Positions 1,970 to 43,455 of a stretch of DNA of 44,849 nt are shown here, in pieces (within the stretch, counting starts at the first letter, position 1; each line of letters starts with the position of its first letter). The translations under genes and the position numbers were made by a program. The DNA lies in the sequence record NC_073080.1; one strand, given 5' to 3'. The stretch is from Escherichia phage EC115. The notes beneath the pieces are model-generated. The model saw only the letters and a list, made by a program, of their open reading frames with translations. It was not told the DNA's origin and made no database searches.

Positions 1970-3490
1970 ATGACCGTTAACGTTGACAACCAGCACCCGC
2001 TCTATGCGCGCATCGCGCCAGAGTGGAAAATGATCCGTGACTGCGTAGCGGGGGAGCGCGCCGTGAAGGCGTGCGGCCCCTTGTACCTGCCACACCCAGC
2101 AAGCGGCGACACCTCCGACCCGAAATCGCGTGCGCGCTATAAGGCGTATAAGCAACGTGCTGTCTTCCTGAACGCCACCGCCCGCACACTGAATGCACTG
2201 TTAGGCGTCGCCTTCGCCAAACCGGTGAGTATGGACCTTTCCGGGGCAATGGCTGACCTGATCGAAGACGTAGACGGCAGCGGGATGCCCCTGGCGCAAC
2301 TCCTGCGCGGCGCTATGTCGGAAGTGCTGCAATCAGGCCGTGCCGGGTTTATGGTCGACTACGACCGCCAGGCGCATTTTGACGAACTGGGTAACGTAGT
2401 ACCGCAGACCGCCGCTGAAATGGCAGCACACCGCCCGCTTATCCGCCTGTATACGGCTGAACAGATCATTAACTGGCGGCAGACCCACGGCGTCGACACG
2501 CTGATTGTGCTGAAGGAAACGGACGAAATCAGCACCGAAGACCCGGACGACTTCGCAAACCACGAAGTAACGATCTGGACCGAGCTTCGCATGATTGCAG
2601 GTAAGGCCCACGCCCGCCGCTGGTTTTACAACGCTGACACGTCCGAGGTGCAGATGGACTTGCCGCGAGGCTTCACCCGCACCGACCTTGTACCATTGGT
2701 GGATGCCTCCGGTAATGCGCTAACTCAACTGCCATTTTGCTGGTGTGGCGCGGTGGACAACAACGCGACACCGGACGCCGCACCGCTGGCGGATATTGCG
2801 TCCATCAACATTAAGCACTACAACGCCGAAGCGGACGTCGCCGAGATTGCGCACATCGTGGGGCAACCTACCCTCATTGCGACTGGTCTTACTCAATCAT
2901 GGGCGGACAAAAACCTGAAGGGCGGGATCGCGCTCGGGGCAACCAAGGGCGTTATCCTGGGCCAGAACATGGACGCCAAACTGCTTCAGGCGGAGGAGCG
3001 CAACTTGTCGGTTGCACTGTGTGAGCGCCGTGAATTGCAAATGGCTAAACTGGGCGCGGCCCTGGTCGAGAAGGGGACCGCACCTAAGACGGCAACCGAA
3101 GCGGCCTACGATGCGCAGACTGATAACAGTATCCTGTCACTGATTGCCGGTAACGTCGAGAAGGCTTTCAACCGGGCGCTGCAAATCGTCAAGCTGTTCA
3201 CGGGCGACACCGCAGATCAACGCGTAACGCTGAATAAGTTCTACACCGAAATCACGGTTGACGCACAGCTTATGACCGCAATGATGGCGGGTGTGCAGAC
3301 CGGTACGGTCCGGCTGGCGGACTTTATCAAGTGGATGATGGCCCAGGGCGTCATTGATGACTCGCAAACCGTCGAGCAGGTGGAAGACGAACTGCGAAAT
3401 CAGAATCCATTGCCTCAAATGTCCCCTGATGCGGTAGAATCTACCGAAGAAGACCCGGACAAGGTAGCGGACAATGGCGAAGACAATTAA
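1970..3490 (+). CDS. Portal protein
   Basis: 506 aa ORF directly after the large terminase; acidic C-terminus; assigned by size and position. Confidence 0.7.
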   Translation: MTVNVDNQHPLYARIAPEWKMIRDCVAGERAVKACGPLYLPHPASGDTSDPKSRARYKAYKQRAVFLNATARTLNALLGVAFAKPVSMDLSGAMADLIEDVDGSGMPLAQLLRGAMSEVLQSGRAGFMVDYDRQAHFDELGNVVPQTAAEMAAHRPLIRLYTAEQIINWRQTHGVDTLIVLKETDEISTEDPDDFANHEVTIWTELRMIAGKAHARRWFYNADTSEVQMDLPRGFTRTDLVPLVDASGNALTQLPFCWCGAVDNNATPDAAPLADIASINIKHYNAEADVAEIAHIVGQPTLIATGLTQSWADKNLKGGIALGATKGVILGQNMDAKLLQAEERNLSVALCERRELQMAKLGAALVEKGTAPKTATEAAYDAQTDNSILSLIAGNVEKAFNRALQIVKLFTGDTADQRVTLNKFYTEITVDAQLMTAMMAGVQTGTVRLADFIKWMMAQGVIDDSQTVEQVEDELRNQNPLPQMSPDAVESTEEDPDKVADNGEDN

Positions 3491-4577
3491 TCAATATATG
3501 GCGGATCGAATGATCCGCCGACACATCTTCACCCAGCGCCTGAGTAATGACCAGGCGCGAAGGGTGTTGGCTATGTGGGAGAAGTTCCGGCCCACGTTAC
3601 TGGGTAAGCTAACCGAGTTACTTGATGGTAAAAAGTCCATGAATAACAAGGCACTTACCACTTTGTTAACGCAACTCGACAAGACCGTTAAAACAGAACT
3701 GCGCACCGAGTTTAAGGCGTTGGCTGAAAGCCTTCAGGAGTTTGCCGACACCGAGGCCGATTATCTCGCCGACACATTGACGGCAGCGATCCAGCCGGTG
3801 GTCGCCGTACCGGCGGTCGAGGTGGTCGGCGTAGTGACCGGTGCGCAGATCGCAGCGACGGCAATGAAAAACCCGTTCCTGGGTAATACGATGATGCAGT
3901 GGCCTGACTCCCTTTCTGAGTGGACCAGGACGCAGATCGGGAATCAGGTGCGCGCTGGATTCATCCAGGGCAAGCCAACTATGGAAATTATTGCGGACGT
4001 GAGGCGCGCGCTCGGCGGTCGTAGTGCGCAAGCTATCTCGAGCGTTGTTAAATCCGCAGTAAACCACTATGCGGCGACTGCCCGCGAACTAATGGTAAAA
4101 GCAAATGACGATATTCTCGAAGGTCGCCTATGGTTATCTACATTGGACACACATACTTCTCCCATGTGCCAGCTACGCGATCGCCTGTTTTATCCGGTTG
4201 ATGTTACTCCCGACACCAAAGGAAAGCGCGGCGGGAAAGTGGTGGCGGGGTCACAGTATGGCGATGGCCCAGGAAAGCTGCATTATTGCTGCCGATCGAC
4301 GGAGACGTGGAAAGTCAAAGGCATGGAAGATTGGCCCAGTGGTAAGCGTCCGGCACTGAAGGCCGACGCGGGTCGATTACTGAGTGAGCAGGTAGACGCG
4401 CAGACTGATTTCTTCTCATGGGTGCAGCGCCAGCCGCGCCATATCCTGGAAGAATTATACGGAGTGCAACGCGCCGACCAGATTATGCGCGGCGTGAAAG
4501 TGCCGAAGATGTTTACCGATTCTGGCGAACTGATGACTATCGCACAGCTTAAAAACCGGGGGTTATGGCGTGATTAA
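3474..4577 (+). CDS. Head morphogenesis protein (Mu F / SPP1 gp7-like)
   Basis: 367 aa after portal with overlapping start; Cys/His-containing C-terminal region typical of Mu-F-like minor head proteins. Confidence 0.65.
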   Translation: MAKTINQYMADRMIRRHIFTQRLSNDQARRVLAMWEKFRPTLLGKLTELLDGKKSMNNKALTTLLTQLDKTVKTELRTEFKALAESLQEFADTEADYLADTLTAAIQPVVAVPAVEVVGVVTGAQIAATAMKNPFLGNTMMQWPDSLSEWTRTQIGNQVRAGFIQGKPTMEIIADVRRALGGRSAQAISSVVKSAVNHYAATARELMVKANDDILEGRLWLSTLDTHTSPMCQLRDRLFYPVDVTPDTKGKRGGKVVAGSQYGDGPGKLHYCCRSTETWKVKGMEDWPSGKRPALKADAGRLLSEQVDAQTDFFSWVQRQPRHILEELYGVQRADQIMRGVKVPKMFTDSGELMTIAQLKNRGLWRD

Positions 4578-4899
4578 ATATGCAGCGATTGGACTGGTTA
4601 TCGGTCTGGCGGTAGGATTCTGGCTAGGTGACTCCTATCGCGCTGGCGTAGTGGCGGAGGCGGCGCAAGAAGCGCAAGCCAAAGCCCAACGGCAGCAAAC
4701 TAAAGTTGTGGAGCGCTCCGTGCAGGCCGAACAGGCCCGCGACGTGGAATACCGGACTATCACGAAAGAGGTTGTTAAATATGTTACGCGCCCTAACCGC
4801 CCTGATTGTAGTTTTGATGCTGAGCGCGTGCGGATCAAGCAACGCGCCGTTGATGCCGCTAACGGAGTCGGCACTGCGACCGCCGTGCAAGTTCGATAG
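4570..4899 (+). CDS. i-spanin-like protein (Rz-like)
   Basis: 109 aa; N-terminal transmembrane segment (IGLVIGLAVGFWLG) followed by a charged Ala/Gln-rich helical region. Confidence 0.55.
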   Translation: MIKYAAIGLVIGLAVGFWLGDSYRAGVVAEAAQEAQAKAQRQQTKVVERSVQAEQARDVEYRTITKEVVKYVTRPNRPDCSFDAERVRIKQRAVDAANGVGTATAVQVR

Positions 4900-5011
4900 C
4901 CCGTCCGCAGACCCCGACGAGGATTTGATGATTGACGTGAAAAATATGGAATGCGGGGCGAAGCTAAGGGCGCAGGTGCTGGAGTTGCAGCAAATAATTA
5001 AGGGGCCGTAA
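4781..5011 (+). CDS. o-spanin-like lipoprotein (Rz1-like)
   Basis: Internal ATG with AAAGAGG RBS; MLRALTALIVVLMLSACGSS signal peptide with lipobox LSAC; Pro-rich mature part; out of frame and overlapping the 3' end of the i-spanin ORF. Confidence 0.6.
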   Translation: MLRALTALIVVLMLSACGSSNAPLMPLTESALRPPCKFDSPSADPDEDLMIDVKNMECGAKLRAQVLELQQIIKGP

Positions 5012-5023
5012 TGGCCCCTTTTT
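5001..5023. terminator. Bidirectional intrinsic terminator
   Basis: AGGGGCC-gtaat-GGCCCCT hairpin followed by a T-run, flanked by an A-run; sits between converging genes ending at 5011 (+) and 5026 (-). Confidence 0.6.
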
Positions 5024-5025
5024 CG

Positions 5026-5790
5026 TTAGCGCGGAATACCGCAAATCTCGTTGAGAGTTTTCACATCCAGCGCCACCGCCGTGGATTTTGGCTTATCCGG
5101 GTAAGGGATGAATTGCTCAACTTCAGGCCATGCCTTAATCAGCTTCTTATCGGTATTGTGCATGTCCAGCACACCGGTAACGGTAAACTTGAATGCGTCA
5201 TACTTAGCACGCAACTCACGGCGGGCCTTGTCGTTACGGTCAAGGCGCTTGCAGAAGTCATGATCTGCCGGGAAATCCGCACGGCAGCGTGGCTTATAGA
5301 TCGGCAGCGATTTTCCGTCCTCGTCCACTTCACACACTGAAGCCAACATAACTGTCTCGAACCCCGGAACGATATCTCCGAGATCAGGCGAGAGCGTATT
5401 CATATATTTCTCTTCCCAGTATCCGCGATGTACGCGGTATTGGCGACCGTCACCGCTCAAGGACAAGATGCGAACATTGCCGCCTGCGTTGATTTCAAAG
5501 GTGGCGTCGTAAACGCTGCCGATACCCTTCGGGCGATCTGTGTCATAGCGATATGTTGCCTTGTTGGTGTATACGCTGACGTTGTACATCTGCGACTGGT
5601 CGTCGCGGATTGCCTTGATATGCTCGCGGAGCGCTGCGAACGTGCGAATGCCTTCCGGCATACAGTCCAGCGTGATTGCGTACGCCAGGTCGCGAGAGTC
5701 CATCATGATTGTTTTGGCTTCGGTAGCGATTTCGTGGTCGCGCAGGATGTTAGCCAGGATCTGATTTTTAATGTCTTTCGTCAGTCTCAT
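5026..5790 (-). CDS. Hypothetical protein (reverse-strand moron in head module)
   Basis: 254 aa ORF on the strand opposite to the structural genes, bounded by the terminator at 5001-5023; no recognisable motif. Confidence 0.6.
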   Translation of the reverse strand: MRLTKDIKNQILANILRDHEIATEAKTIMMDSRDLAYAITLDCMPEGIRTFAALREHIKAIRDDQSQMYNVSVYTNKATYRYDTDRPKGIGSVYDATFEINAGGNVRILSLSGDGRQYRVHRGYWEEKYMNTLSPDLGDIVPGFETVMLASVCEVDEDGKSLPIYKPRCRADFPADHDFCKRLDRNDKARRELRAKYDAFKFTVTGVLDMHNTDKKLIKAWPEVEQFIPYPDKPKSTAVALDVKTLNEICGIPR

Positions 5791-5829
5791 TTTTATGTCC
5801 TCATTTTAGGGGCTTTCGCCACGATTGGT

Positions 5830-6144
5830 TTAGTTGAATTTGATGTTGCCACCGGTGGAAGTTAAGCGGGCACATACAGCTTCAACGGCATCGACGCACA
5901 TGAAATCGTTAAAGGCTTCGACCAGGGCGTTTATGAAAGATGCCGGAACCAGGCCGCAAGCCGGATTATCGAATATCGCGGAGTTGATCGCCGCTTTTGC
6001 CGCTTCAGAAGCATTCATGCTCTGGCACAGATTCAGCGCTTCCGCGTTACGCATTGCGTGAAAGGTAAAGGTATTAGCTACGGTAGCTTTATTGAAACGG
6101 GCCATTGCGGCGTCTACTGGAGTTGCTACGGTCATGTTAGTCAT
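5830..6144 (-). CDS. Hypothetical protein
   Basis: Minus-strand ORF upstream of 5026..5790; start chosen at the ATG (MTNMTV) preceded by GAAGGAAG RBS; track ORF extends to 6204. Confidence 0.5.
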   Translation of the reverse strand: MTNMTVATPVDAAMARFNKATVANTFTFHAMRNAEALNLCQSMNASEAAKAAINSAIFDNPACGLVPASFINALVEAFNDFMCVDAVEAVCARLTSTGGNIKFN

Positions 6145-6179
6145 TTTGTCTTCCTTCATATCTCTGTTGGTGTGCAACC

Positions 6180-6209
6180 AATATACTGCAACCAACATTC
6201 GCAATGCAA
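6180..6209 (-). promoter_or_regulatory. Sigma70-like promoter for the reverse-strand cassette
   Basis: On the minus strand TTGCAT-N18-TATATT; contains two TTGGTTGCA 9-mers; the 21-mer TATATTGGTTGCACACCAACA is identical to the one at 40282-40302. Confidence 0.45.
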
Positions 6210-6298
6210 GCGAATTTTGCGATTATTTTTATCGCTGATAATATTAAGGCGTGAAGTCAAGCGGGTGGCCCGCTTTGCCACAATCCCAGGGGGATAGC

Positions 6299-7000
6299 AT
6301 GAAACTTACTAAAGCAGAATATGACGCGTTGCCGGAAGGCATGAAGGCGCTTTTTGTTGCCGATGGTGACGGGTATAAATCCACGTTCATGACCGCCGAA
6401 GAAGTACAGGCGGAGATCAAGGGTCTGAAAGACAACAACGCGAAGCTGGTTAGCGAAAAGAAAGCAGAAGCCGAACGCCGCGCCGAAGCCGAGCGCCTTG
6501 CGAAAGAGAAAGAGGAAGCCGCCGCGCGCAAAAATGGCGACCTCGAAGCGATCGACAAGTCCTGGAAAGATAAGTTTGCGAAACACGAAGCAGACACATC
6601 GGGAAAAATCGAAGCCTACCGCAAGCAGATCCACGATCTAACCATCGGCAGCGCTGCCAAAGACCTAGCGTCGAAGCTATTCGGTAAGAATGCCGGGATC
6701 ATGCAACGCCACGTTATGGACCGCCTGACGCTGGAAGACGGCGAAGACGGCAGCTTGAAAGTGCGTGTCTTGCAGGATGGCAAACCGTCCGCGCTGACTA
6801 TGGAAGAGCTTGAAAAAGAGTTCCGTAATAACGCCGATTTTGCATCCGTCCTGGCTGGCACGCCAGCCGGTGGTGCGCCGAGCAAACCGACGCATGTTGT
6901 CGAAGATGTGAAGTCGAAAATCTCTATGGGCCACAGCTTCGGCATCACCGATCTGACGAAACAGGCTGGTGAAATCATCGCTAAAATGGGCGACGAGTAA
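6299..7000 (+). CDS. Scaffolding protein (putative)
   Basis: About 233 aa, charged and helical (Ala/Glu/Lys-rich), directly upstream of the major capsid gene; ATG at 6299 with GGGGGA RBS (track ORF starts 6251). Confidence 0.6.
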   Translation: MKLTKAEYDALPEGMKALFVADGDGYKSTFMTAEEVQAEIKGLKDNNAKLVSEKKAEAERRAEAERLAKEKEEAAARKNGDLEAIDKSWKDKFAKHEADTSGKIEAYRKQIHDLTIGSAAKDLASKLFGKNAGIMQRHVMDRLTLEDGEDGSLKVRVLQDGKPSALTMEELEKEFRNNADFASVLAGTPAGGAPSKPTHVVEDVKSKISMGHSFGITDLTKQAGEIIAKMGDE

Positions 7001-7097
7001 GCACATTGCCCGCGAAAGCGGGCAATTTTGCGAGCGCGTAAATCTAAGGTAACATTAACGGTACTGGGCGAATGCTCACAACTCAAAGGATTTCGAT

Positions 7098-8192
7098 ATG
7101 TCTTTAACAGTGTTCCAGCGTAAACTCGTCACCGCGGTTACGCAAATGATCCCCGATAACCTGAACGTGTTCAACGCTGCCGCTAACGGTGCTGTTGTTC
7201 TCGGCACGGGTGAAGTGCTGAAGGACGTTGTGGAAAAAATGTCCGTAGGCTTGATCGCTAACCTCGTTACCGATCGTAACGCCTATGCCCCTGTCGGTAC
7301 TCCGGCGACCGCAAAAGTGCTGGCGCGTATGCTGACCAACTCCGTTAACCTGTCCGCGAAAGTGGGTCCGGTAGCAATCACTAAGGCCATGATGGCTAAG
7401 ATCGAAACCAACGTTAACAGCGTTGCGGCTGAGATTGCGGCACAGGCTACTCAAGCGATTATGCTGCATTACCTGAAAGCAGGTATCGGCGCAAGTAAAG
7501 CGGCGATCGAGAGCAACGCAGCGGCAAAATACACCCAACCGGCGCGCGTTGACGGCGTTGGCGGTCGAACCTTCCCGACCCTCGCAGACTTCCCGCTGGC
7601 GGCGTCCAAGTTCGGCGATCAGGCGTCTTTAATTAAATCCTGGTTTATGGACGGCGTTACCTGGGCAAACTTCATTGCATACCAGGCGCTCCCGTCTGCC
7701 GAGCAGGTATTCGCGATCGGCGACCTGCAGGTAATGGGCGATGGCTTGGGCCGTCGTTTCATTATTTCCGATGCCGCTGCCGATGCTATGGGTGCTGGCA
7801 CGATGCTTGGTCTTGTCCCTGGCGCGGTTGCAGTTACGACCAATGGCCTCGATATGCTGGCGCAGGAAAAAGGCGGCAACGAGAACATTGAGCGCTGGTG
7901 GCAGGGCGAGTTCGACTTCAACGTGGCTGTTAAAGGCTATCGACTGAAGGCGTCCGCACGTACTCCGGTCGAAGGTGTTCGCTCGTTCAAACTGTCCGAC
8001 ATCACCACTTCCGATAACTGGGAACTGGACCAGGGCCAGGTAGACAACGCACCGGCAACCGTGCAGGACGTTGGCGGCGATAGCGATACTAAAGGCCGCC
8101 GCCGTACGCAGACCGCGCAGGCAGTGCCGACCCGTCACATCAAGGAAACGGCTGGCGTACTGGTTACGCTGACTGCGACTACCGCGTCTTAA
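7098..8192 (+). CDS. Major capsid protein
   Basis: 364 aa after the scaffold, strong RBS, followed by a strong terminator; assigned by position and size. Confidence 0.8.
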   Translation: MSLTVFQRKLVTAVTQMIPDNLNVFNAAANGAVVLGTGEVLKDVVEKMSVGLIANLVTDRNAYAPVGTPATAKVLARMLTNSVNLSAKVGPVAITKAMMAKIETNVNSVAAEIAAQATQAIMLHYLKAGIGASKAAIESNAAAKYTQPARVDGVGGRTFPTLADFPLAASKFGDQASLIKSWFMDGVTWANFIAYQALPSAEQVFAIGDLQVMGDGLGRRFIISDAAADAMGAGTMLGLVPGAVAVTTNGLDMLAQEKGGNENIERWWQGEFDFNVAVKGYRLKASARTPVEGVRSFKLSDITTSDNWELDQGQVDNAPATVQDVGGDSDTKGRRRTQTAQAVPTRHIKETAGVLVTLTATTAS

Positions 8193-21009: not shown

Positions 21010-21312
21010 ATGGCATTCGGTATCGCAACGTGGGACGCGCAAGGACGCCCAAACAACTACGGCATTAAACCGGTAAGCGTGATCGGAAGGATTCATCTTG
21101 CGGAAGGACAAAAATCAGGCGCATGGTCATTCCCTGTACCGGCGGGGATGAAGGTCGGATACGTGGTCGCACTGGATAAAGGCGCGGTCGGGCCAGGCCG
21201 CAGAATAACCGCCAGCGGGAACACTATCACGGTTTCCGCGGCAAGTGCGGTAGGTGGCGGGGTTTACTCCGCATCTGAATGTGACGTTATTGTTTTTGTG
21301 GAGCGAGCATAA
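21010..21312 (+). CDS. Hypothetical tail-distal protein
   Basis: 100 aa ORF with GAGG RBS after the J terminator; shares a G-(F)A-x-WD-x-x-G-(K/R) motif with the next ORF. Confidence 0.5.
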   Translation: MAFGIATWDAQGRPNNYGIKPVSVIGRIHLAEGQKSGAWSFPVPAGMKVGYVVALDKGAVGPGRRITASGNTITVSAASAVGGGVYSASECDVIVFVERA

Positions 21313-21986
21313 TGGCTAATTACGGCGCGTTGATTGACTTACCAAACGGCAACCCGTTTATCACGCCAGAATCGACGCCGTTTTGTCTATTCCGCCGTGT
21401 GGTTGTTGGGTCTTCGGCAAACGGCACTGCGCAGTCGGCGGCTGCCGATATTAATTTGGGTGGTGACTACCCGGCAATAGCGTTTGTGAAAACTACGCAC
21501 ACCGCCCAGCCGACCGTCGTAGGGTCTTCTCGCGTTGGTAATGTGGTGAAGGTGAGCGCCAGCAATCCATTCGGGCAAGGCTTCACGATGACGGCTTACA
21601 TCTTTGCCATATTCCCACAGACCCTTCCGCGGTGGGGCTTCGCTATTTGGGATAAGACGGGGAAGCTAGTACTTACTAATGAGAGTCGCGTACTAAGCGA
21701 TTTAGTTACCGTCGGATCTCCTGGCGCTAACGGGGGGATTAACATTGACCAGACGCTAAATGGCAGCTACGCCGTCGCTCCGGGCATATTGGGGTCTACG
21801 CTGATCCGGTTTTTTGTGCAGGGCCAGCCGCAAGTAATATCGGTAACGGCGTACACGGGGGCCAGATTTGATGGGTCGCGAACGCGTATATCAGCAGCGT
21901 CGTCGGGGAACGCCACGGGGGATGTGGTGGGGTATACTAACAACGGCAACGCGATTATGGCGATTAACACGGCCAATTATGATTGA
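21312..21986 (+). CDS. Hypothetical tail-distal protein
   Basis: 224 aa, Gly/Thr/Asn-rich, ATGA-type start overlap with the previous ORF. Confidence 0.55.
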   Translation: MANYGALIDLPNGNPFITPESTPFCLFRRVVVGSSANGTAQSAAADINLGGDYPAIAFVKTTHTAQPTVVGSSRVGNVVKVSASNPFGQGFTMTAYIFAIFPQTLPRWGFAIWDKTGKLVLTNESRVLSDLVTVGSPGANGGINIDQTLNGSYAVAPGILGSTLIRFFVQGQPQVISVTAYTGARFDGSRTRISAASSGNATGDVVGYTNNGNAIMAINTANYD

Positions 21987-21988
21987 AG

Positions 21989-22012
21989 AAAGCCCCGAAA
22001 GGGGCTTATTTG
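21989..22012. terminator. Bidirectional terminator
   Basis: AGCCCC-gaaa-GGGGCT hairpin followed by TATTTG, between converging genes. Confidence 0.55.
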
Positions 22013-22224
22013 CAGGTGGTGCTTTTGAAGTGGTCGACCGACACATACTGGAAGTTGAACGGATACCCCGCCTTGAGCATTTTGTGCCCGCTAAAGTCGG
22101 CGACACCGAACACTGGTACAGAATACTCCATACCGCTATTCATATATGTCGCGTCGCAGATTTTAGACGGCATACCGGCACAACCGGACAGAAGAACCGC
22201 ACAAATCATAATTAAAGTTTTCAT
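22006..22224 (-). CDS. Small lipoprotein, Cor-like superinfection-exclusion candidate
   Basis: 72 aa from ATG 22224 (AGGAGA RBS); MKTLIMICAVLLSGC signal peptide with lipobox; reverse-oriented between tail-tip and tail-fibre genes. Confidence 0.6.
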   Translation of the reverse strand: MKTLIMICAVLLSGCAGMPSKICDATYMNSGMEYSVPVFGVADFSGHKMLKAGYPFNFQYVSVDHFKSTTCK

Positions 22225-22303
22225 GTTATCATCTCCTATATTTGGTTGAGTTTTAGTATTACACCTCTCAACCAGGATTGCAACCAATTACGAGGATTTA
22301 GCT

Positions 22304-25461: not shown

Positions 25462-25491
25462 ACTATAGTGCAACCAACCTATTGGTTGCAA
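25462..25491 (-). promoter_or_regulatory. Promoter with embedded perfect palindromic operator
   Basis: Minus strand TTGCAA-N18-TATAGT; the spacer is filled by TGCAACCAA-ccta-TTGGTTGCA (25469-25490, 9 bp arms). Confidence 0.5.
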
Positions 25492-27370: not shown

Positions 27371-27399
27371 AAGATAATGCAACCAATATGATTATGCAA
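27371..27399 (-). promoter_or_regulatory. Candidate promoter with two direct TTGGTTGCA copies
   Basis: Minus strand TTGCAT-N17-TATCTT; 9-mers at 27378-27386 and 27395-27403. Confidence 0.35.
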
Positions 27400-27404
27400 C
27401 CAAT

Positions 27405-30327: not shown

Positions 30328-30356
30328 ACTATACCGCTATGCGACCAATTCAGCAA
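30328..30356 (-). promoter_or_regulatory. Candidate sigma70 promoter
   Basis: Minus strand TTGCTG-N17-TATAGT upstream of the zinc-ribbon gene. Confidence 0.35.
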
Positions 30357-30615
30357 CCAATAAATCACAGTCGGCGATGTTGTCTATAACGCGAACGTCA
30401 GCGCCGCGGCGGGCCATCCGCTCATGTTCACGTACCTGGTGCGGCTTCGGTTTTCCTCCTGGGCGCTTCACTTCGACGAACACTATTTTGCCGTTGATGA
30501 TGATAATCAGGTCGGGCGCACCTGCGCGCCCCTCCCAGGCCATTTTGCGGCAGAATCCGCCTACCTCTTTCACCCGTCGCATCAGGTGACTTTGAATCTT
30601 GCCTTCTGGTGTCAT
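30337..30615 (-). CDS. VRR-NUC domain nuclease
   Basis: 92 aa from ATG 30615; PDLIIIINGKIVFVEVKRPGGKPKPHQ matches the VRR-NUC D...E.K core; start overlaps the polymerase stop. Confidence 0.7.
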   Translation of the reverse strand: MTPEGKIQSHLMRRVKEVGGFCRKMAWEGRAGAPDLIIIINGKIVFVEVKRPGGKPKPHQVREHERMARRGADVRVIDNIADCDLLVAELVA

Positions 30616-33914: not shown

Positions 33915-34004
33915 TTTCCAATTCCTCATTTTCACATGTATCGGGGTTATTATGAGCCACCCCGTTCGGCTTGGTTGCTAATCTACTTGGTTGCGCCTAA
34001 GCGA

Positions 34005-39835: not shown

Positions 39836-39941
39836 ATTTTGCGCGCATTGGTTGCCATTTTGAGTGTTTTTAGCTGGTAGCATTGGTTGCCGTGTAGTGT
39901 GAATATAATGCATAGTTATGCAATAAAACTGCATAAAGTAA

Positions 39942-40099: not shown

Positions 40100-40258
40100 C
40101 ATAAAATCCAGGATTGCATAACGCACGGCAGCATGTTGCGGATTGCGGTCGTCGATGAACTAGGCAACCAATGCGAGGTGCAGAATGGCGGGCGGGAAAT
40201 GCAGTTTGCAGTCACAGCAGATAGCGATCAACTTTTTCATGCGCGTGATTAATATTGG

Positions 40259-40287
40259 TTGCATTCGGCCTGGCACCTTGCTATATT
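40259..40287 (+). promoter_or_regulatory. Sigma70-like promoter flanked by TTGGTTGCA copies
   Basis: TTGCAT-N17-TATATT; 9-mers at 40255-40263 and 40286-40294; GAGGA RBS before the ATG at 40316. Confidence 0.5.
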
Positions 40288-40315
40288 GGTTGCACACCAA
40301 CATGAGGACTGAACA

Positions 40316-42165: not shown

Positions 42166-42456
42166 ATGGATAAGCTAAACGAGTGGTTATTCGCCCTTGC
42201 GTGTCTTGCTGGTGGCTTCGTAGGCGCACGCATTCATGGCGAGGCAACGAAAGGGCCGTTGAACTTCGTTTTATATGTCGTAGTTGGCTTCCTGTGTGCC
42301 ATATTTGGTGCGCCAGCTATTGCCGAGTGGTCTGGTTTGTCCGGTGAGCGCACTGTTGCCGGTTTGGGCTTCGTAACTGCCATCTTCTGGATGCCAATAG
42401 CTGACCGGATCCGGGAGACAATTGCGTCGCTACACCTTCCGGGGGGCGCAAAATGA
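42166..42456 (+). CDS. Holin (putative, three transmembrane segments)
   Basis: 96 aa with three hydrophobic segments and a charged C-terminus; upstream of the endolysin. Confidence 0.55.
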   Translation: MDKLNEWLFALACLAGGFVGARIHGEATKGPLNFVLYVVVGFLCAIFGAPAIAEWSGLSGERTVAGLGFVTAIFWMPIADRIRETIASLHLPGGAK

Positions 42457-42698
42457 TTATCACCGTCCTGTTGTTTGTTATCATAGGGGCTTCGTCCCTG
42501 TTTAACGTGTATGCGCCGTCCGTTCAGGATGGCTTCTTCGGTCGGGTGTTATATCTGCTAACAGCAATGACCTGTATTGTCGGGCTGTTGCAAACGGGAG
42601 ACGTCTCTGATGCCACCTGGACCGCGTTAATCTGGCTGTTTGCATTGCGCACCCTGCGTAATGCTGTTTTGAATGGGGTAAAACATGCGATTCAGTGA
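42453..42698 (+). CDS. Second holin-like membrane protein
   Basis: 81 aa with three hydrophobic segments; ATGA overlap with the holin, overlaps the endolysin start. Confidence 0.5.
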   Translation: MIITVLLFVIIGASSLFNVYAPSVQDGFFGRVLYLLTAMTCIVGLLQTGDVSDATWTALIWLFALRTLRNAVLNGVKHAIQ

Positions 42699-43176
42699 TA
42701 ACGGTCTACGATTTACGGCAGCATGGGAGGCTTTCAGCCCGGTGCCGTATTTCGCGACCAAGAAAGAGCAGGCCCGCGGCCTGTACACCTGGGGTTATGG
42801 GCACACTGGCACTAATCCGCCACGAAGCATTACCCGTGCGGAAGCGCTGGAACTGCTCAAGCGCGATGTGGCGTATGCTGAGGACTGGGTGAACAAATAC
42901 GCACATCCGAGCATTAACCAGGCGCAATTCGACGCGCTGGTGGATCTGGTAATCAACGCCGGTCCAGGTCCGATCGTACCGGATGACGTCGCGAACGACT
43001 TTGATGATGCGGTGCGACTGGGCGACTGGGCGAAGGTACGAGCTACTCTGCCGCAGTTCCGCAAGCAAGGTGGCGAAGTGCTTAAGGGTCTGGTGCGCCG
43101 TGCAATCGGCAGGCAAGCGCTATTCGATGGTAAGCAGTGGGACGTTGCCGAGCGAATCGGTCGTAACGCTGCATAA
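42685..43176 (+). CDS. Endolysin (phage lysozyme-like)
   Basis: 163 aa; E...YTWGYGHTG segment resembling the catalytic region of phage lysozymes; follows the holins. Confidence 0.75.
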   Translation: MRFSDNGLRFTAAWEAFSPVPYFATKKEQARGLYTWGYGHTGTNPPRSITRAEALELLKRDVAYAEDWVNKYAHPSINQAQFDALVDLVINAGPGPIVPDDVANDFDDAVRLGDWAKVRATLPQFRKQGGEVLKGLVRRAIGRQALFDGKQWDVAERIGRNAA

Positions 43177-43192
43177 TACGAGGTGACACGAT

Positions 43193-43394: not shown

Positions 43395-43455
43395 GCTTGA
43401 CTCGCAACCAACACAGGGGCCATACTGCAACCAATCAACTGGAGGAGTAATCAAG

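What the first reader, a model, noticed from the sequence alone, without database searches (positions are those of the whole stretch)
5026..6209. Reverse-oriented two-gene moron cassette inside the head-morphogenesis module
Between the spanin genes and the scaffold gene, two ORFs (about 104 and 254 aa) are encoded on the opposite strand with their own promoter (TTGCAT-N18-TATATT at 6180-6209) and a bidirectional terminator (5001-5023). Neither product shows a motif I recognise. Independently transcribed insertions in a late operon are typical morons and often encode anti-defence, superinfection-exclusion or host-takeover functions, making this a prime candidate for an undescribed accessory system.
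Basis: partly seen in the sequence, partly recalled or inferred. Interest (0 to 1): 0.7.

Follow-up and report, generated by a model that had tools for sequence, protein, structure and literature searches.

The report
Antisense nmad5 plus small cargo gene
The two reverse-strand genes are real, but the larger is the already-described Dhillonvirus nmad5 gene (dispensable, tied to escape from the Tmn defence), and only the small upstream gene is a true variable insert, with no known function.

Summary
The anatomy is confirmed. Two minus-strand genes (5026-5790, 254 aa; 5830-6144, 104 aa) lie between the spanins and the scaffold gene. They have a conserved promoter-like site (6180-6209) and a convergent hairpin terminator (5000-5020).

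The 254-aa protein is a full-length Pfam Nmad5 protein (PF18757, E=1.6e-60). It is 86% identical to the phage SM_A8 nmad5, whose K216E mutation escapes the Tmn defence (Yamashita 2025). That paper also reports nmad5 as deletable and toxic to clone. K216 is present here.

nmad5 is not a recent insertion. About 148 of 157 Dhillonvirus records carry it, and it sits at the same antisense site in relatives only 42-44% identical.

The two genes are not a system. The 104-aa gene is a ~360-nt insert between the nmad5 promoter and the nmad5 ribosome-binding site. About 40% of Dhillonviruses have it, and it occurs without nmad5 in unrelated phages.

Nmad5 is unlikely to be a DNA-modifying enzyme here. 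No partner enzymes are in the window, no conserved catalytic residues were seen, and a confident model (pLDDT 91) matches no solved fold. I read it as a fast-evolving host- or defence-interacting protein (inferred). The function of the 104-aa gene is unknown. Interest is low to moderate.

The parts
5000..5020 (.). Convergent (bidirectional) hairpin terminator shared by the Rz/Rz1 transcript (+) and the nmad5 transcript (-)
   Evidence: 9-bp (+) / 8-bp (-) stem with 6 GC pairs. Tail is TTTTCGTT on +, and a weaker AATTATTT on -. The homologous hairpin is found in KarlBarth.
5026..5790 (-). nmad5: 254-aa Nmad5-family protein (PF18757), pI 7.0, 29 kDa
   Evidence: Pfam E=1.6e-60, profile positions 1-206 of 206; phrog_1965. 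86% identical to SM_A8 Nmad5. AF2 model pLDDT 90.9. dN/dS about 0.1.
5029..5154 (-). Most conserved module of Nmad5 (residues 213-254): T-x-K-K-L-x-x-A-W-P-E ... P ... L-N-x-x-x-G-I-P. It includes the K216 codon at 5143-5145.
   Evidence: L217 and W221 are invariant; P222, E223, P229, L246 and N247 are >=90% conserved in 79 diverse members. Position 216 is K/Q/R/A/N and never E or D. dN/dS is 0.02-0.05. K216E in SM_A8 escapes Tmn (PMC11846954). K216 verified here.
5275..5658 (-). Variable central region of Nmad5 (residues 45-172; the beta strands lie at residues 79-127). It is longer here than in most family members.
   Evidence: Secondary structure. Many gaps or insertions in the family alignment. 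dN 0.12-0.14 against 0.01-0.03 in the termini.
5791..5829 (-). 39-nt spacer with the nmad5 ribosome-binding site (GAGGA, 5798-5802). ORF B and nmad5 are in the same reading frame.
   Evidence: Sequence. The same ribosome-binding site directly follows the promoter leader in phages without ORF B. A natural in-frame ORF B::Nmad5 fusion exists, P0055.
5830..6144 (-). ORF B: 104-aa acidic (pI 5.1), mostly helical protein of unknown function (phrog_24635). It is a variable cargo gene.
   Evidence: dN/dS 0.11-0.24. No Pfam, NCBIfam, PADLOC or PDB match. AF2 pLDDT is only 50.
5806..6165 (-). Approximate extent of the ORF B insertion relative to nmad5-only Dhillonviruses
   Evidence: Alignment A1 against KarlBarth, KS_S9 and Teewinot. 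Shared sequence ends at ...CACACCAACA and resumes at the nmad5 ribosome-binding site.
6180..6209 (-). Promoter-like site: -35 TTGCAT (6204-6209), 18-nt spacer, -10 TATATT (6180-6185)
   Evidence: Sequence. 8/12 here, so not called by the scan. 9/12 with a 17-nt spacer in KarlBarth. Conserved across genomes. No transcript data.
6173..6195 (-). Two direct copies of TTGGTTGCA (6173-6181 and 6187-6195) flanking the -10 hexamer. Candidate operator shared with other promoters of this genome.
   Evidence: 27 hits at <=1 mismatch against 11.5 +/- 3.2 in shuffles. Copies are paired in intergenic regions. A near-identical TATATTGGTTGCACACCAACA+GAGGAC arrangement lies at 40281-40307.

Best explanation
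What it is. This is a short antisense transcription unit. A sigma-70-type promoter at 6180-6209 is overlapped by a repeated TTGGTTGCA element. It most likely produces one mRNA carrying ORF B and then nmad5, which ends at the hairpin at 5000-5020.

The two genes are unrelated passengers of that unit.

(1) nmad5 is a long-standing, near-universal but dispensable gene of the Dhillonvirus lineage. It belongs to Pfam family PF18757. I think it is most likely a non-enzymatic protein that binds a host factor or defence component, not a DNA-modifying enzyme. Its conserved N-terminal helix and C-terminal T-K-K-L..W-P-E / L-N...G-L-P module would form the binding surface. Its variable central domain differs between alleles. 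In the published work, changing K216 (present here) to E lets related phages escape the Tmn KAP-NTPase defence, while deleting the gene does not. This suggests the mutant protein actively blocks or evades Tmn, rather than the wild-type protein being the sole trigger.

(2) ORF B is a horizontally mobile small acidic protein. It has been dropped between the nmad5 promoter leader and the nmad5 ribosome-binding site, so it uses that promoter. Its function is unknown. By context, the best guess is anti-defence, exclusion or host-takeover cargo.

Shown versus inferred. Shown: gene identity, distribution, insertion boundaries, lack of modification partners, lack of fold relatives. Inferred: the single bicistronic transcript, the non-enzymatic binding role, and any function for ORF B.
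For: Identity of nmad5:
- Pfam Nmad5 E=1.6e-60, full length.
- 86% identical to SM_A8 Nmad5, in the same two-gene layout.
- K216 is present.
- Published: K216E/K296E escape Tmn; the deletion mutant is viable and still Tmn-sensitive; the gene is toxic to clone (PMC11846954).

Resident gene, not an insert:
- Full-length nmad5 in about 148 records of >=60% identity, against 157 records matching the region.
- Same antisense position in L014 and L015 at 42-44% identity.

ORF B is an insert:
- Clean junctions in alignment A1.
- Present in only 59 Dhillonvirus records.
- Window versus SM_A8: ORF B dS is 0.04, while adjacent nmad5 dS is 0.69.
- Homologues lie in unrelated phages without nmad5.
- An unrelated gene occupies the same slot in L014.

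Against an enzymatic modification role:
- None of the SN1/M6 hypermodification enzymes has a homologue in the window (tblastn, all E>0.1; only Nmad5 hits, at 2.5e-10).
- Full-length Nmad5 is the first gene after N in Stx phages and HK542. It also lies in replication or early regions of other phages.
- Family-wide invariant residues are L, W, P, E, P, L, N. The A-D-H motif is only about 53% conserved.
- Dhillonviruses are sensitive to type I/II restriction-modification compared with Queuovirinae (PMC8594841).

Arms-race signature:
- nmad5 dN is 5-13 times that of the flanking head genes.
- Mosaic breakpoints fall inside the gene.
- Position 216 is never acidic in 79 diverse members.
Against: - No transcript or proteome data. 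The promoter is only 8/12 in this window and such matches are not above chance. Timing of expression is unknown.
- In M6/SN1-like phages, Nmad5 sits inside the thymidine-hypermodification cluster. A role linked to modified DNA is real for at least that clade and could extend here in a form I cannot detect.
- The absence of a recognisable catalytic fold or residues is negative evidence. A new fold can still be an enzyme.
- The published authors themselves call nmad5 a DNA modification enzyme and propose that Tmn senses its product.
- Nothing tested here shows what Nmad5 binds.
- ORF B has no functional evidence at all.
Confidence: 0.55

Rival explanations
1. Nmad5 is what its name says: an enzyme or obligatory cofactor that modifies nucleotides or DNA bases in Dhillonvirus. 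Tmn senses that modification, and K216E changes the product.
For: - The family sits between aGPT-Pplase1 and dUMP hydroxymethylase in SN1/M6-type hypermodification clusters.
- The authors of PMC11846954 interpret it this way.
- The window encodes other DNA-modifying genes, such as a C5 cytosine methyltransferase in the close relative 011D5.
Against: - No homologue of any M6-type pathway enzyme in the window.
- No catalytic-type invariant residues, and no enzyme fold match.
- Full-length members occur in lambdoid Stx/HK542 phages right after N. Those phages are not known to carry hypermodified DNA (my own knowledge).
- Deleting nmad5 does not change Tmn sensitivity, which is hard to reconcile with Tmn sensing its product.
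- Dhillonviruses are restriction-sensitive.
Confidence: 0.15
2. One reading: ORF B and nmad5 form one two-gene moron cassette, a single undescribed accessory (anti-defence or exclusion) system acquired as a unit.
For: - Same strand, same promoter and terminator, 39-nt spacing.
- Both are non-essential and outside the head-assembly function.
- Natural in-frame fusion P0055.
Against: - ORF B is absent from about 60% of nmad5-bearing Dhillonviruses, with a precise junction.
- ORF B homologues elsewhere never neighbour nmad5.
- A distant relative has an unrelated gene in the slot.
- The two genes have very different divergence in the same phage pair (dS 0.04 versus 0.69).
- The same K-to-E Tmn escape arises in phages with ORF B (SM_A8) and, as inferred from its K296 numbering, without it (SM_S22).
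Confidence: 0.08
3. Because of its place between portal/MuF and scaffold/capsid genes, the cassette encodes head-assembly or virion accessory proteins.
For: Location in the head module. nmad5 is present in nearly all genus members.
Against: - Opposite strand with its own signals.
- The engineered deletion is viable.
- Natural deletions exist in plaque-forming isolates Teewinot and SM_S24.
- Family members in other phages sit in early or replication regions.
- No similarity to structural proteins.
Confidence: 0.03

Closest known systems
nmad5 of Dhillonvirus phages SM_A8 / SM_S22 (Yamashita et al. 2025, Commun Biol 8:290; PMC11846954)
   Same: - Same gene at the same locus. 86% protein identity to SM_A8.
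- Same ORF B + nmad5 layout as SM_A8.
- K216 is conserved.
- The published properties should therefore transfer: dispensable, toxic when cloned, K-to-E escape from Tmn.
   Different: - A different allele. The central domain differs (dN about 0.14).
- This phage's own Tmn phenotype is untested.
- The paper's 'N-terminally truncated' versus 'longer' nmad5 (K216 versus K296) is explained here. In phages without ORF B the antisense frame stays open for exactly 80 more codons, to an upstream ATG. That stretch overlaps the promoter and the scaffold gene start, so it is most likely an annotation artefact.
Pfam PF18757 Nmad5 (family name credited to Iyer, Zhang, Burroughs & Aravind 2013, NAR 41:7635; paper not held, cited from memory and from reference 29 of PMC11846954)
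   Same: Full-length match far above the gathering score (205 versus 27 bits). Shares the N-terminal R-L-T helix and the C-terminal W-P-E / L-N..G-L-P motifs.
   Different: - About 50 residues longer than the 206-position model, because of an expanded central region.
- Not next to any nucleotide-modification gene, unlike the M6/SN1 members that gave the family its name.
Morons of lambdoid and other tailed phages (Hendrix-type definition, from general knowledge): extra genes with their own promoter and terminator inserted between conserved genes
   Same: ORF B fits in part. It is present or absent among close relatives, is inserted between conserved elements, is spread horizontally, and has slightly lower GC (50.2% versus 54.6%).
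   Different: - ORF B did not bring its own promoter or terminator. It uses those of nmad5.
- nmad5 itself is not present/absent in the moron sense. It is ancestral at this site.
Accessory genes just downstream of N in the lambdoid pL operon (such as lambda Ral; from general knowledge)
   Same: Full-length Nmad5 homologues (Pfam E about 3e-72) are the first gene after N in Stx phages and HK542. This is an early, non-essential accessory position.
   Different: No sequence or demonstrated functional relation to Ral. This is an analogy of position only.

Membership tests
Pfam PF18757 (Nmad5) | Whole-protein HMM score above the curated gathering score, covering the whole model | tested here: met
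   205.2 bits against a cut-off of 27; residues 1-253 on profile positions 1-206 of 206.
Pfam PF18757 (Nmad5) | Conserved motifs: N-terminal R-L-T and C-terminal T-x-K-K-L-x-x-x-W-P-E ... P ... L-N-x-x-x-G-[LI]-P | tested here: met
   All are present in the window protein. L217 and W221 are invariant and P222, E223, P229, L246 and N247 are >=90% conserved in the 84-sequence alignment.
Pfam PF18757 (Nmad5) | Genomic association with nucleotide or base-modification enzymes (the rationale for the name) | tested here: not met
   tblastn of SN1 aGPT-Pplase1/2, PLP enzyme, radical SAM enzyme, 5-hmdU kinase, dUMP hydroxymethylase, HD hydrolase and dCMP deaminase against the window: all E>0.1. This is a contextual feature, not a sequence criterion, so family membership stands.
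Pfam PF18757 (Nmad5) | Biochemical activity in nucleotide or DNA modification | not testable with these tools
   No activity is reported in the papers I could read. No fold or catalytic-residue support was found.
M6/SN1-type thymidine hypermodification pathway | Presence of dUMP hydroxymethylase, 5-hmdU DNA kinase and aGPT-Pplase genes | tested here: not met
   (no homologues). The annotation of the close relative 011D5 lists none.
Tmn-escape determinant (Dhillonvirus nmad5, PMC11846954) | Orthologous gene with lysine at the position mutated to Glu in escape phages | tested here: met
   K216 (codon 5143-5145) lies in the motif TDKKLIKAWPE, identical to SM_A8.
Tmn-escape determinant (Dhillonvirus nmad5, PMC11846954) | Phage is restricted by Tmn, and K216E relieves this | not testable with these tools
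   Needs plating on Tmn-expressing E. coli.
Moron (independently transcribed insert in a late operon) | Own promoter and terminator flanking the gene(s) | tested here: inconclusive
   The terminator hairpin is found. The promoter is 8/12 here (not called) and 9/12 in KarlBarth, and it is conserved. No transcript data.
Moron (independently transcribed insert in a late operon) | Present in some close relatives and absent from others at the same site | tested here: met
   Met for ORF B only: 59 of about 148 Dhillonvirus records, with precise junctions. Not met for nmad5, which is near-universal and kept at this site in relatives of 42-44% identity. Its absences are secondary deletions.
anti-Tmn (ORF35 of SM_S22) | ORF B would be an anti-Tmn homologue that protects against Tmn | tested here: not met
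   SM_A8 carries a 98% identical ORF B. Yet the paper reports SM_A8 as lacking an anti-Tmn homologue and as Tmn-sensitive. anti-Tmn is ORF35, elsewhere in the genome. The two sequences were not compared directly because the anti-Tmn sequence was not fetched.

The most novel reading that the evidence does not exclude
Nmad5 may be misnamed. Rather than a nucleotide-modification factor, it could be a widespread phage protein with a previously unseen fold that binds a conserved bacterial target. That target could be a replication- or repair-associated factor, or immune NTPases such as Tmn. The surface around residue 216 would set which host defence alleles are neutralised, so wild-type Nmad5 would be a natural anti-defence or host-takeover protein. 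On this reading, the short leader between its promoter and its ribosome-binding site is a recurrent landing pad for small anti-defence cargo genes such as ORF B.
Probability: 0.3. Interest if true: 0.55.

Novelty: already known. Interest (0 to 1): 0.3.

Why it matters
For the scan, this is mostly a correction. The 'unrecognisable two-gene system' is a named Pfam family member that has already been studied experimentally in this phage genus, plus one orphan cargo gene.

What remains useful:
- Nmad5 is routinely annotated as a DNA-modification protein. The evidence here points away from that in Dhillonvirus and lambdoid phages: no partner enzymes, no catalytic signature, no known fold, early-operon contexts, fast allelic turnover. 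This bears on how the Tmn escape phenotype should be interpreted.
- The K216 versus K296 discrepancy in the literature is explained by the presence or absence of ORF B together with an open antisense frame.
- ORF B (phrog_24635) is a small, mobile, purifying-selected gene found in at least four unrelated groups of enterobacterial phages. It is a reasonable but unremarkable candidate for anti-defence screening.

Tried and rejected
- ORF B as a zinc-binding protein. H29, C63, C83 and C91 are invariant in the ten closest homologues, but C83 is Val in AAM37 and ZQ1 and C40 also varies. Rejected as unsupported.
- Structure-based annotation of ORF B. The AF2 model has pLDDT 50 from a 10-sequence alignment, so no fold search was run on it. 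Profile searches of the PDB, Pfam, NCBIfam and PADLOC found nothing.
- Census of Nmad5 neighbourhoods with the search for related loci on the family alignment. This failed because the alignment is too divergent. I relied on representative contexts instead.
- The original family description (Iyer et al. 2013, PMC3763556) is not held. Statements about it rest on memory and on citations in other papers.
- The DefensePredictor paper mentions an 'NMAD' domain in defence systems. The text does not say which Nmad family, so it was not used.
- ORF B as anti-Tmn, a head-assembly role, and a functional two-gene system were all considered and rejected (see the rival explanations and membership test).
Full report
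**Source of the window.** The window is a Dhillonvirus genome, a group of small E. coli siphoviruses. Region 4500-7200 is 100% identical to Escherichia phage vB_EcoS_011D5 (MT478993/NC_073085), and 157 phage records match it. Elsewhere the window is only 92-96% identical to that record, so it is a mosaic close relative rather than the same sequence throughout.

**Observation.** The gene order is portal (1970-3490), MuF-like head morphogenesis (3474-4577) and Rz/Rz1 spanins (4570-5011) on the + strand. Two minus-strand ORFs follow: 5026-5790 (254 aa, 'ORF A') and 5830-6144 (104 aa, 'ORF B'). Then come the scaffold gene (6299-7000) and the major capsid gene (7098-8192) on the + strand.
- A GC-rich hairpin at 5000-5020 scores as a terminator on both strands.
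It matches only 8/12 consensus positions, so the scan did not call it: 0 sites found against 2.1 expected by chance.
- Its support comes from comparison with relatives. In KarlBarth the same site is TTGCAA-N17-TATATT (9/12), and the surrounding ~100 nt is almost invariant among four genomes.
- Both ORFs are real genes. dN/dS is 0.09-0.19 for ORF A and 0.11-0.24 for ORF B.

**What ORF A is.** It is a full-length member of Pfam PF18757, 'Nucleotide modification associated domain 5' (E=1.6e-60, 205 bits against a cut-off of 27), and of phrog_1965.
- Yamashita et al. 2025 (PMC11846954) studied this very gene in Dhillonvirus. Mutants escaping the Tmn defence (a KAP-family membrane NTPase) carried K216E in phage SM_A8 and K296E in SM_S22.
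- Reverting the mutation restored sensitivity, and introducing it conferred resistance.
- Deleting nmad5 left the phage viable and still Tmn-sensitive.
- The gene could not be cloned because of toxicity.
- SM_A8 has the same ORF B + nmad5 layout as the window. Its Nmad5 is 86% identical. K216 is present here, in TDKKLIKAWPE (codon 5143-5145).

**The K216 versus K296 numbering.** The paper attributes the 80-residue difference to an N-terminal truncation. In genomes without ORF B, the frame upstream of the nmad5 ATG stays open, and an ATG lies exactly 80 codons upstream. That extension runs antisense through the promoter and the start of the scaffold gene. I conclude it is an annotation artefact. 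I also infer that SM_S22 is of the nmad5-only type and SM_A8 of the ORF B type. I did not fetch the SM_S22 genome to check this.

**Is it a moron cassette?** The two genes have different histories.

*nmad5:*
- It is full length in about 148 phage records at >=60% identity.
- It sits antisense at this site in metagenomic relatives whose Nmad5 is only 42-44% identical: between the Rz-like gene and the contig end in L014, and between the scaffold and Rz-like genes in L015.
- It is therefore ancestral at this site, not a recent insertion.
- It is nevertheless expendable. Teewinot keeps only 38 codons. SM_S24 lacks the conserved C-terminus. Metagenomes contain further deletion products, including an in-frame fusion of ORF B residues 1-46 to Nmad5 residues 213-254 (P0055).

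*ORF B:*
- It occurs in only 59 Dhillonvirus records.
- Alignment with KarlBarth and KS_S9 shows that in phages lacking it the promoter leader (...TATATTGGTTGCACACCAACA) runs straight into the nmad5 ribosome-binding site. In the window, about 360 nt carrying ORF B and its own ribosome-binding site is inserted at that point.
- Between the window and SM_A8, ORF B is almost identical (dS 0.04) while adjacent nmad5 is deeply diverged (dS 0.69) and the flanking head genes are intermediate (dS 0.10-0.37). This indicates recent horizontal spread of ORF B.
- Homologues (53-75% identity) occur without nmad5 in Pantoea phage AAM37 (early region), Ackermannviridae (near the DNA polymerase genes), and three metagenomic phages. 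In those three it lies after a DNA ligase gene, at the head of another antisense cassette between the tape-measure and minor-tail genes, or before an Imm-type superinfection-immunity gene.
- In L014 the slot upstream of nmad5 holds an unrelated 106-aa gene.

The unit is therefore a resident accessory gene plus a variable cargo slot. It is not a two-gene system.

**What Nmad5 probably does.** The family name comes from M6/SN1-type Pseudomonas phages, where the gene lies between aGPT-Pplase1 and dUMP hydroxymethylase in the thymidine-hypermodification cluster. Several results argue against extending that role to this window.
- None of the pathway enzymes has a homologue in the window. All tblastn hits have E>0.1, while SN1 Nmad5 hits at 2.5e-10.
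- The best matches to the Pfam model (E about 3e-72) are the first gene after N in the pL operon of Stx phages and HK542. Other members lie between a helicase and a Holliday-junction resolvase in Bas97, ahead of DUF2800/ssDNA-binding/PolA genes, among small early genes in Pondi, or in a Vibrio myovirus tail module.
- In an alignment of 84 members drawn from an exhaustive search of 1.8 billion representatives (98 hits), the invariant or near-invariant residues are L217, W221, P222, E223, P229, L246 and N247, plus N-terminal R-L-T. The A-D-H motif is only about 53% conserved. This does not look like a catalytic constellation.
- BASEL phenotyping describes Dhillonviruses as sensitive to type I/II restriction-modification compared with the modified Queuovirinae.

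The gene also evolves like a host-interaction factor.
- Its dN is 5-13 times that of the neighbouring head genes.
- The termini are strongly constrained (dN/dS 0.02-0.06), while the central region is more relaxed (0.12-0.27).
- Recombination breakpoints fall inside the gene. For example, window versus BMA1 gives dS about 0 over residues 1-172 but 0.58 over residues 173-254.
- Position 216 is K/Q/R/A/N in 79 diverse members and never acidic. K216E is therefore a substitution that natural members of the family do not use. This fits the published hint that the mutation is a gain or change of function, not a loss.

My best reading, which is inferred, is that Nmad5 is a non-enzymatic binding protein acting on a host factor or immune component, and that the K216 surface is involved. 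The modification-enzyme reading remains a live rival at about 0.15.

**ORF B.** It is a 104-aa, acidic (pI 5.1), predicted helical protein with the conserved motifs DNPACGLVP and FM[CV]VD. The family is small: 16 clusters, all from enterobacterial phages. It has no match in Pfam, NCBIfam, PADLOC or the PDB, and the model is unusable (pLDDT 50). It is not the published anti-Tmn, because SM_A8 has ORF B yet is Tmn-sensitive and is reported to lack an anti-Tmn homologue. Its function is unknown. Mobility and context make anti-defence, exclusion or host-takeover cargo the best guess.

**Regulation.** The -10 hexamer is flanked by two copies of TTGGTTGCA. This 9-mer is enriched genome-wide: 27 hits at <=1 mismatch against 11.5 +/- 3.2 in shuffles, and none of 100 shuffles reached 27. 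It occurs mostly in pairs, in intergenic, promoter-like regions. One example is a near-identical TATATTGGTTGCACACCAACA+GAGGAC arrangement at 40281-40307, upstream of a 108-aa early-region gene. Another, in the opposite orientation, overlaps a promoter-like site ahead of the phosphoesterase/terminase operon. This suggests a shared operator and supports the nmad5 promoter being a genuine, regulated phage promoter. It does not give expression timing.

**Verdict.** However, the main gene is a recognised family already studied at this locus, it is not an insertion, and the two genes do not form a system. Novelty: already known for nmad5; ORF B is an ordinary orphan cargo gene. Interest: 0.3.

Noticed in passing
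window 6173-6195, 25469-25490, 27378-27403, 30340-30360, 33971-33995, 39848-39891, 40255-40294, 43403-43434; singles at 22279, 37035, 40839: The 9-mer TTGGTTGCA is strongly enriched: 27 hits at <=1 mismatch against 11.5 +/- 3.2 in shuffles, with 13 exact copies. It occurs mostly as pairs 13-35 nt apart in intergenic, promoter-like regions, in either orientation. It looks like a genome-wide operator for an unidentified regulator.
   Followed up: partly
L004:2261-2500 and L002:2261-2500 (KarlBarth, KS_S9); corresponds to window ~6166-6400, minus strand: In Dhillonviruses without ORF B, the frame upstream of nmad5 is open to an ATG exactly 80 codons upstream. This explains the 'longer' nmad5 and the K296 numbering in the Tmn paper as a probable annotation artefact overlapping the promoter and the scaffold gene start.
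   Followed up: yes
window 6156-6281, minus strand: RefSeq annotates a 41-aa 'no similarity' CDS (gp36 of 011D5) here. It overlaps the conserved promoter and operator region and is probably spurious. RefSeq also starts ORF B at ATG 6159 (109 aa) rather than at ATG 6144, which has the ribosome-binding site and is supported by homologues.
   Followed up: partly
P0055, P0059, P0042 (metagenomic proteins); L003 (Teewinot); L011 (SM_S24): The locus is a deletion hot spot. Examples are an in-frame fusion of ORF B 1-46 to Nmad5 213-254, a promoter-region ORF fused to Nmad5 192-254, Nmad5 1-155 fused to antisense Rz sequence, a 38-codon remnant, and a C-terminal truncation.
   Followed up: partly
L015:5251-5763 and L008:1401-1967: A 170-aa ORF just downstream of nmad5 in a distant Dhillon-like contig has a sub-threshold match to the DNA polymerase III beta (sliding clamp) central domain (23.4 bits against a cut-off of 27). 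Pantoea phage AAM37, which carries an ORF B homologue, also has a short gene annotated as 'DNA polymerase III beta'. Possibly coincidence.
   Followed up: no
L021:4374-4589: In one metagenomic phage, the ORF B homologue is immediately followed by a gene with the Imm_superinfect domain (PF14373), a superinfection-immunity family. This is a weak contextual hint for ORF B.
   Followed up: no
window 1-44849 versus NC_073085: The window is 100% identical to 011D5 over 4500-7200, but only 96.4% over 1-20809 as a whole and 92-94% in the early region, with some segments unmatched. It is therefore a mosaic relative, not that exact genome.
   Followed up: partly
window ~21030-22290, minus strand (gp53-gp54 of 011D5): A second reverse-oriented two-gene unit (a putative lipoprotein plus a 321-aa hypothetical protein) lies between the tail-fibre genes. 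A single TTGGTTGCA copy sits about 60 nt upstream of its first gene. It is a better-looking exclusion-type moron candidate than the one examined.
   Followed up: no
window 4570-5011: The Rz/Rz1 spanin pair (with Rz1 embedded) sits in the head module next to the MuF-like gene, far from the holin and endolysin genes (near window 42170-43180, mapped from the 011D5 annotation). The Rz1 stop overlaps the shared terminator hairpin.
   Followed up: no
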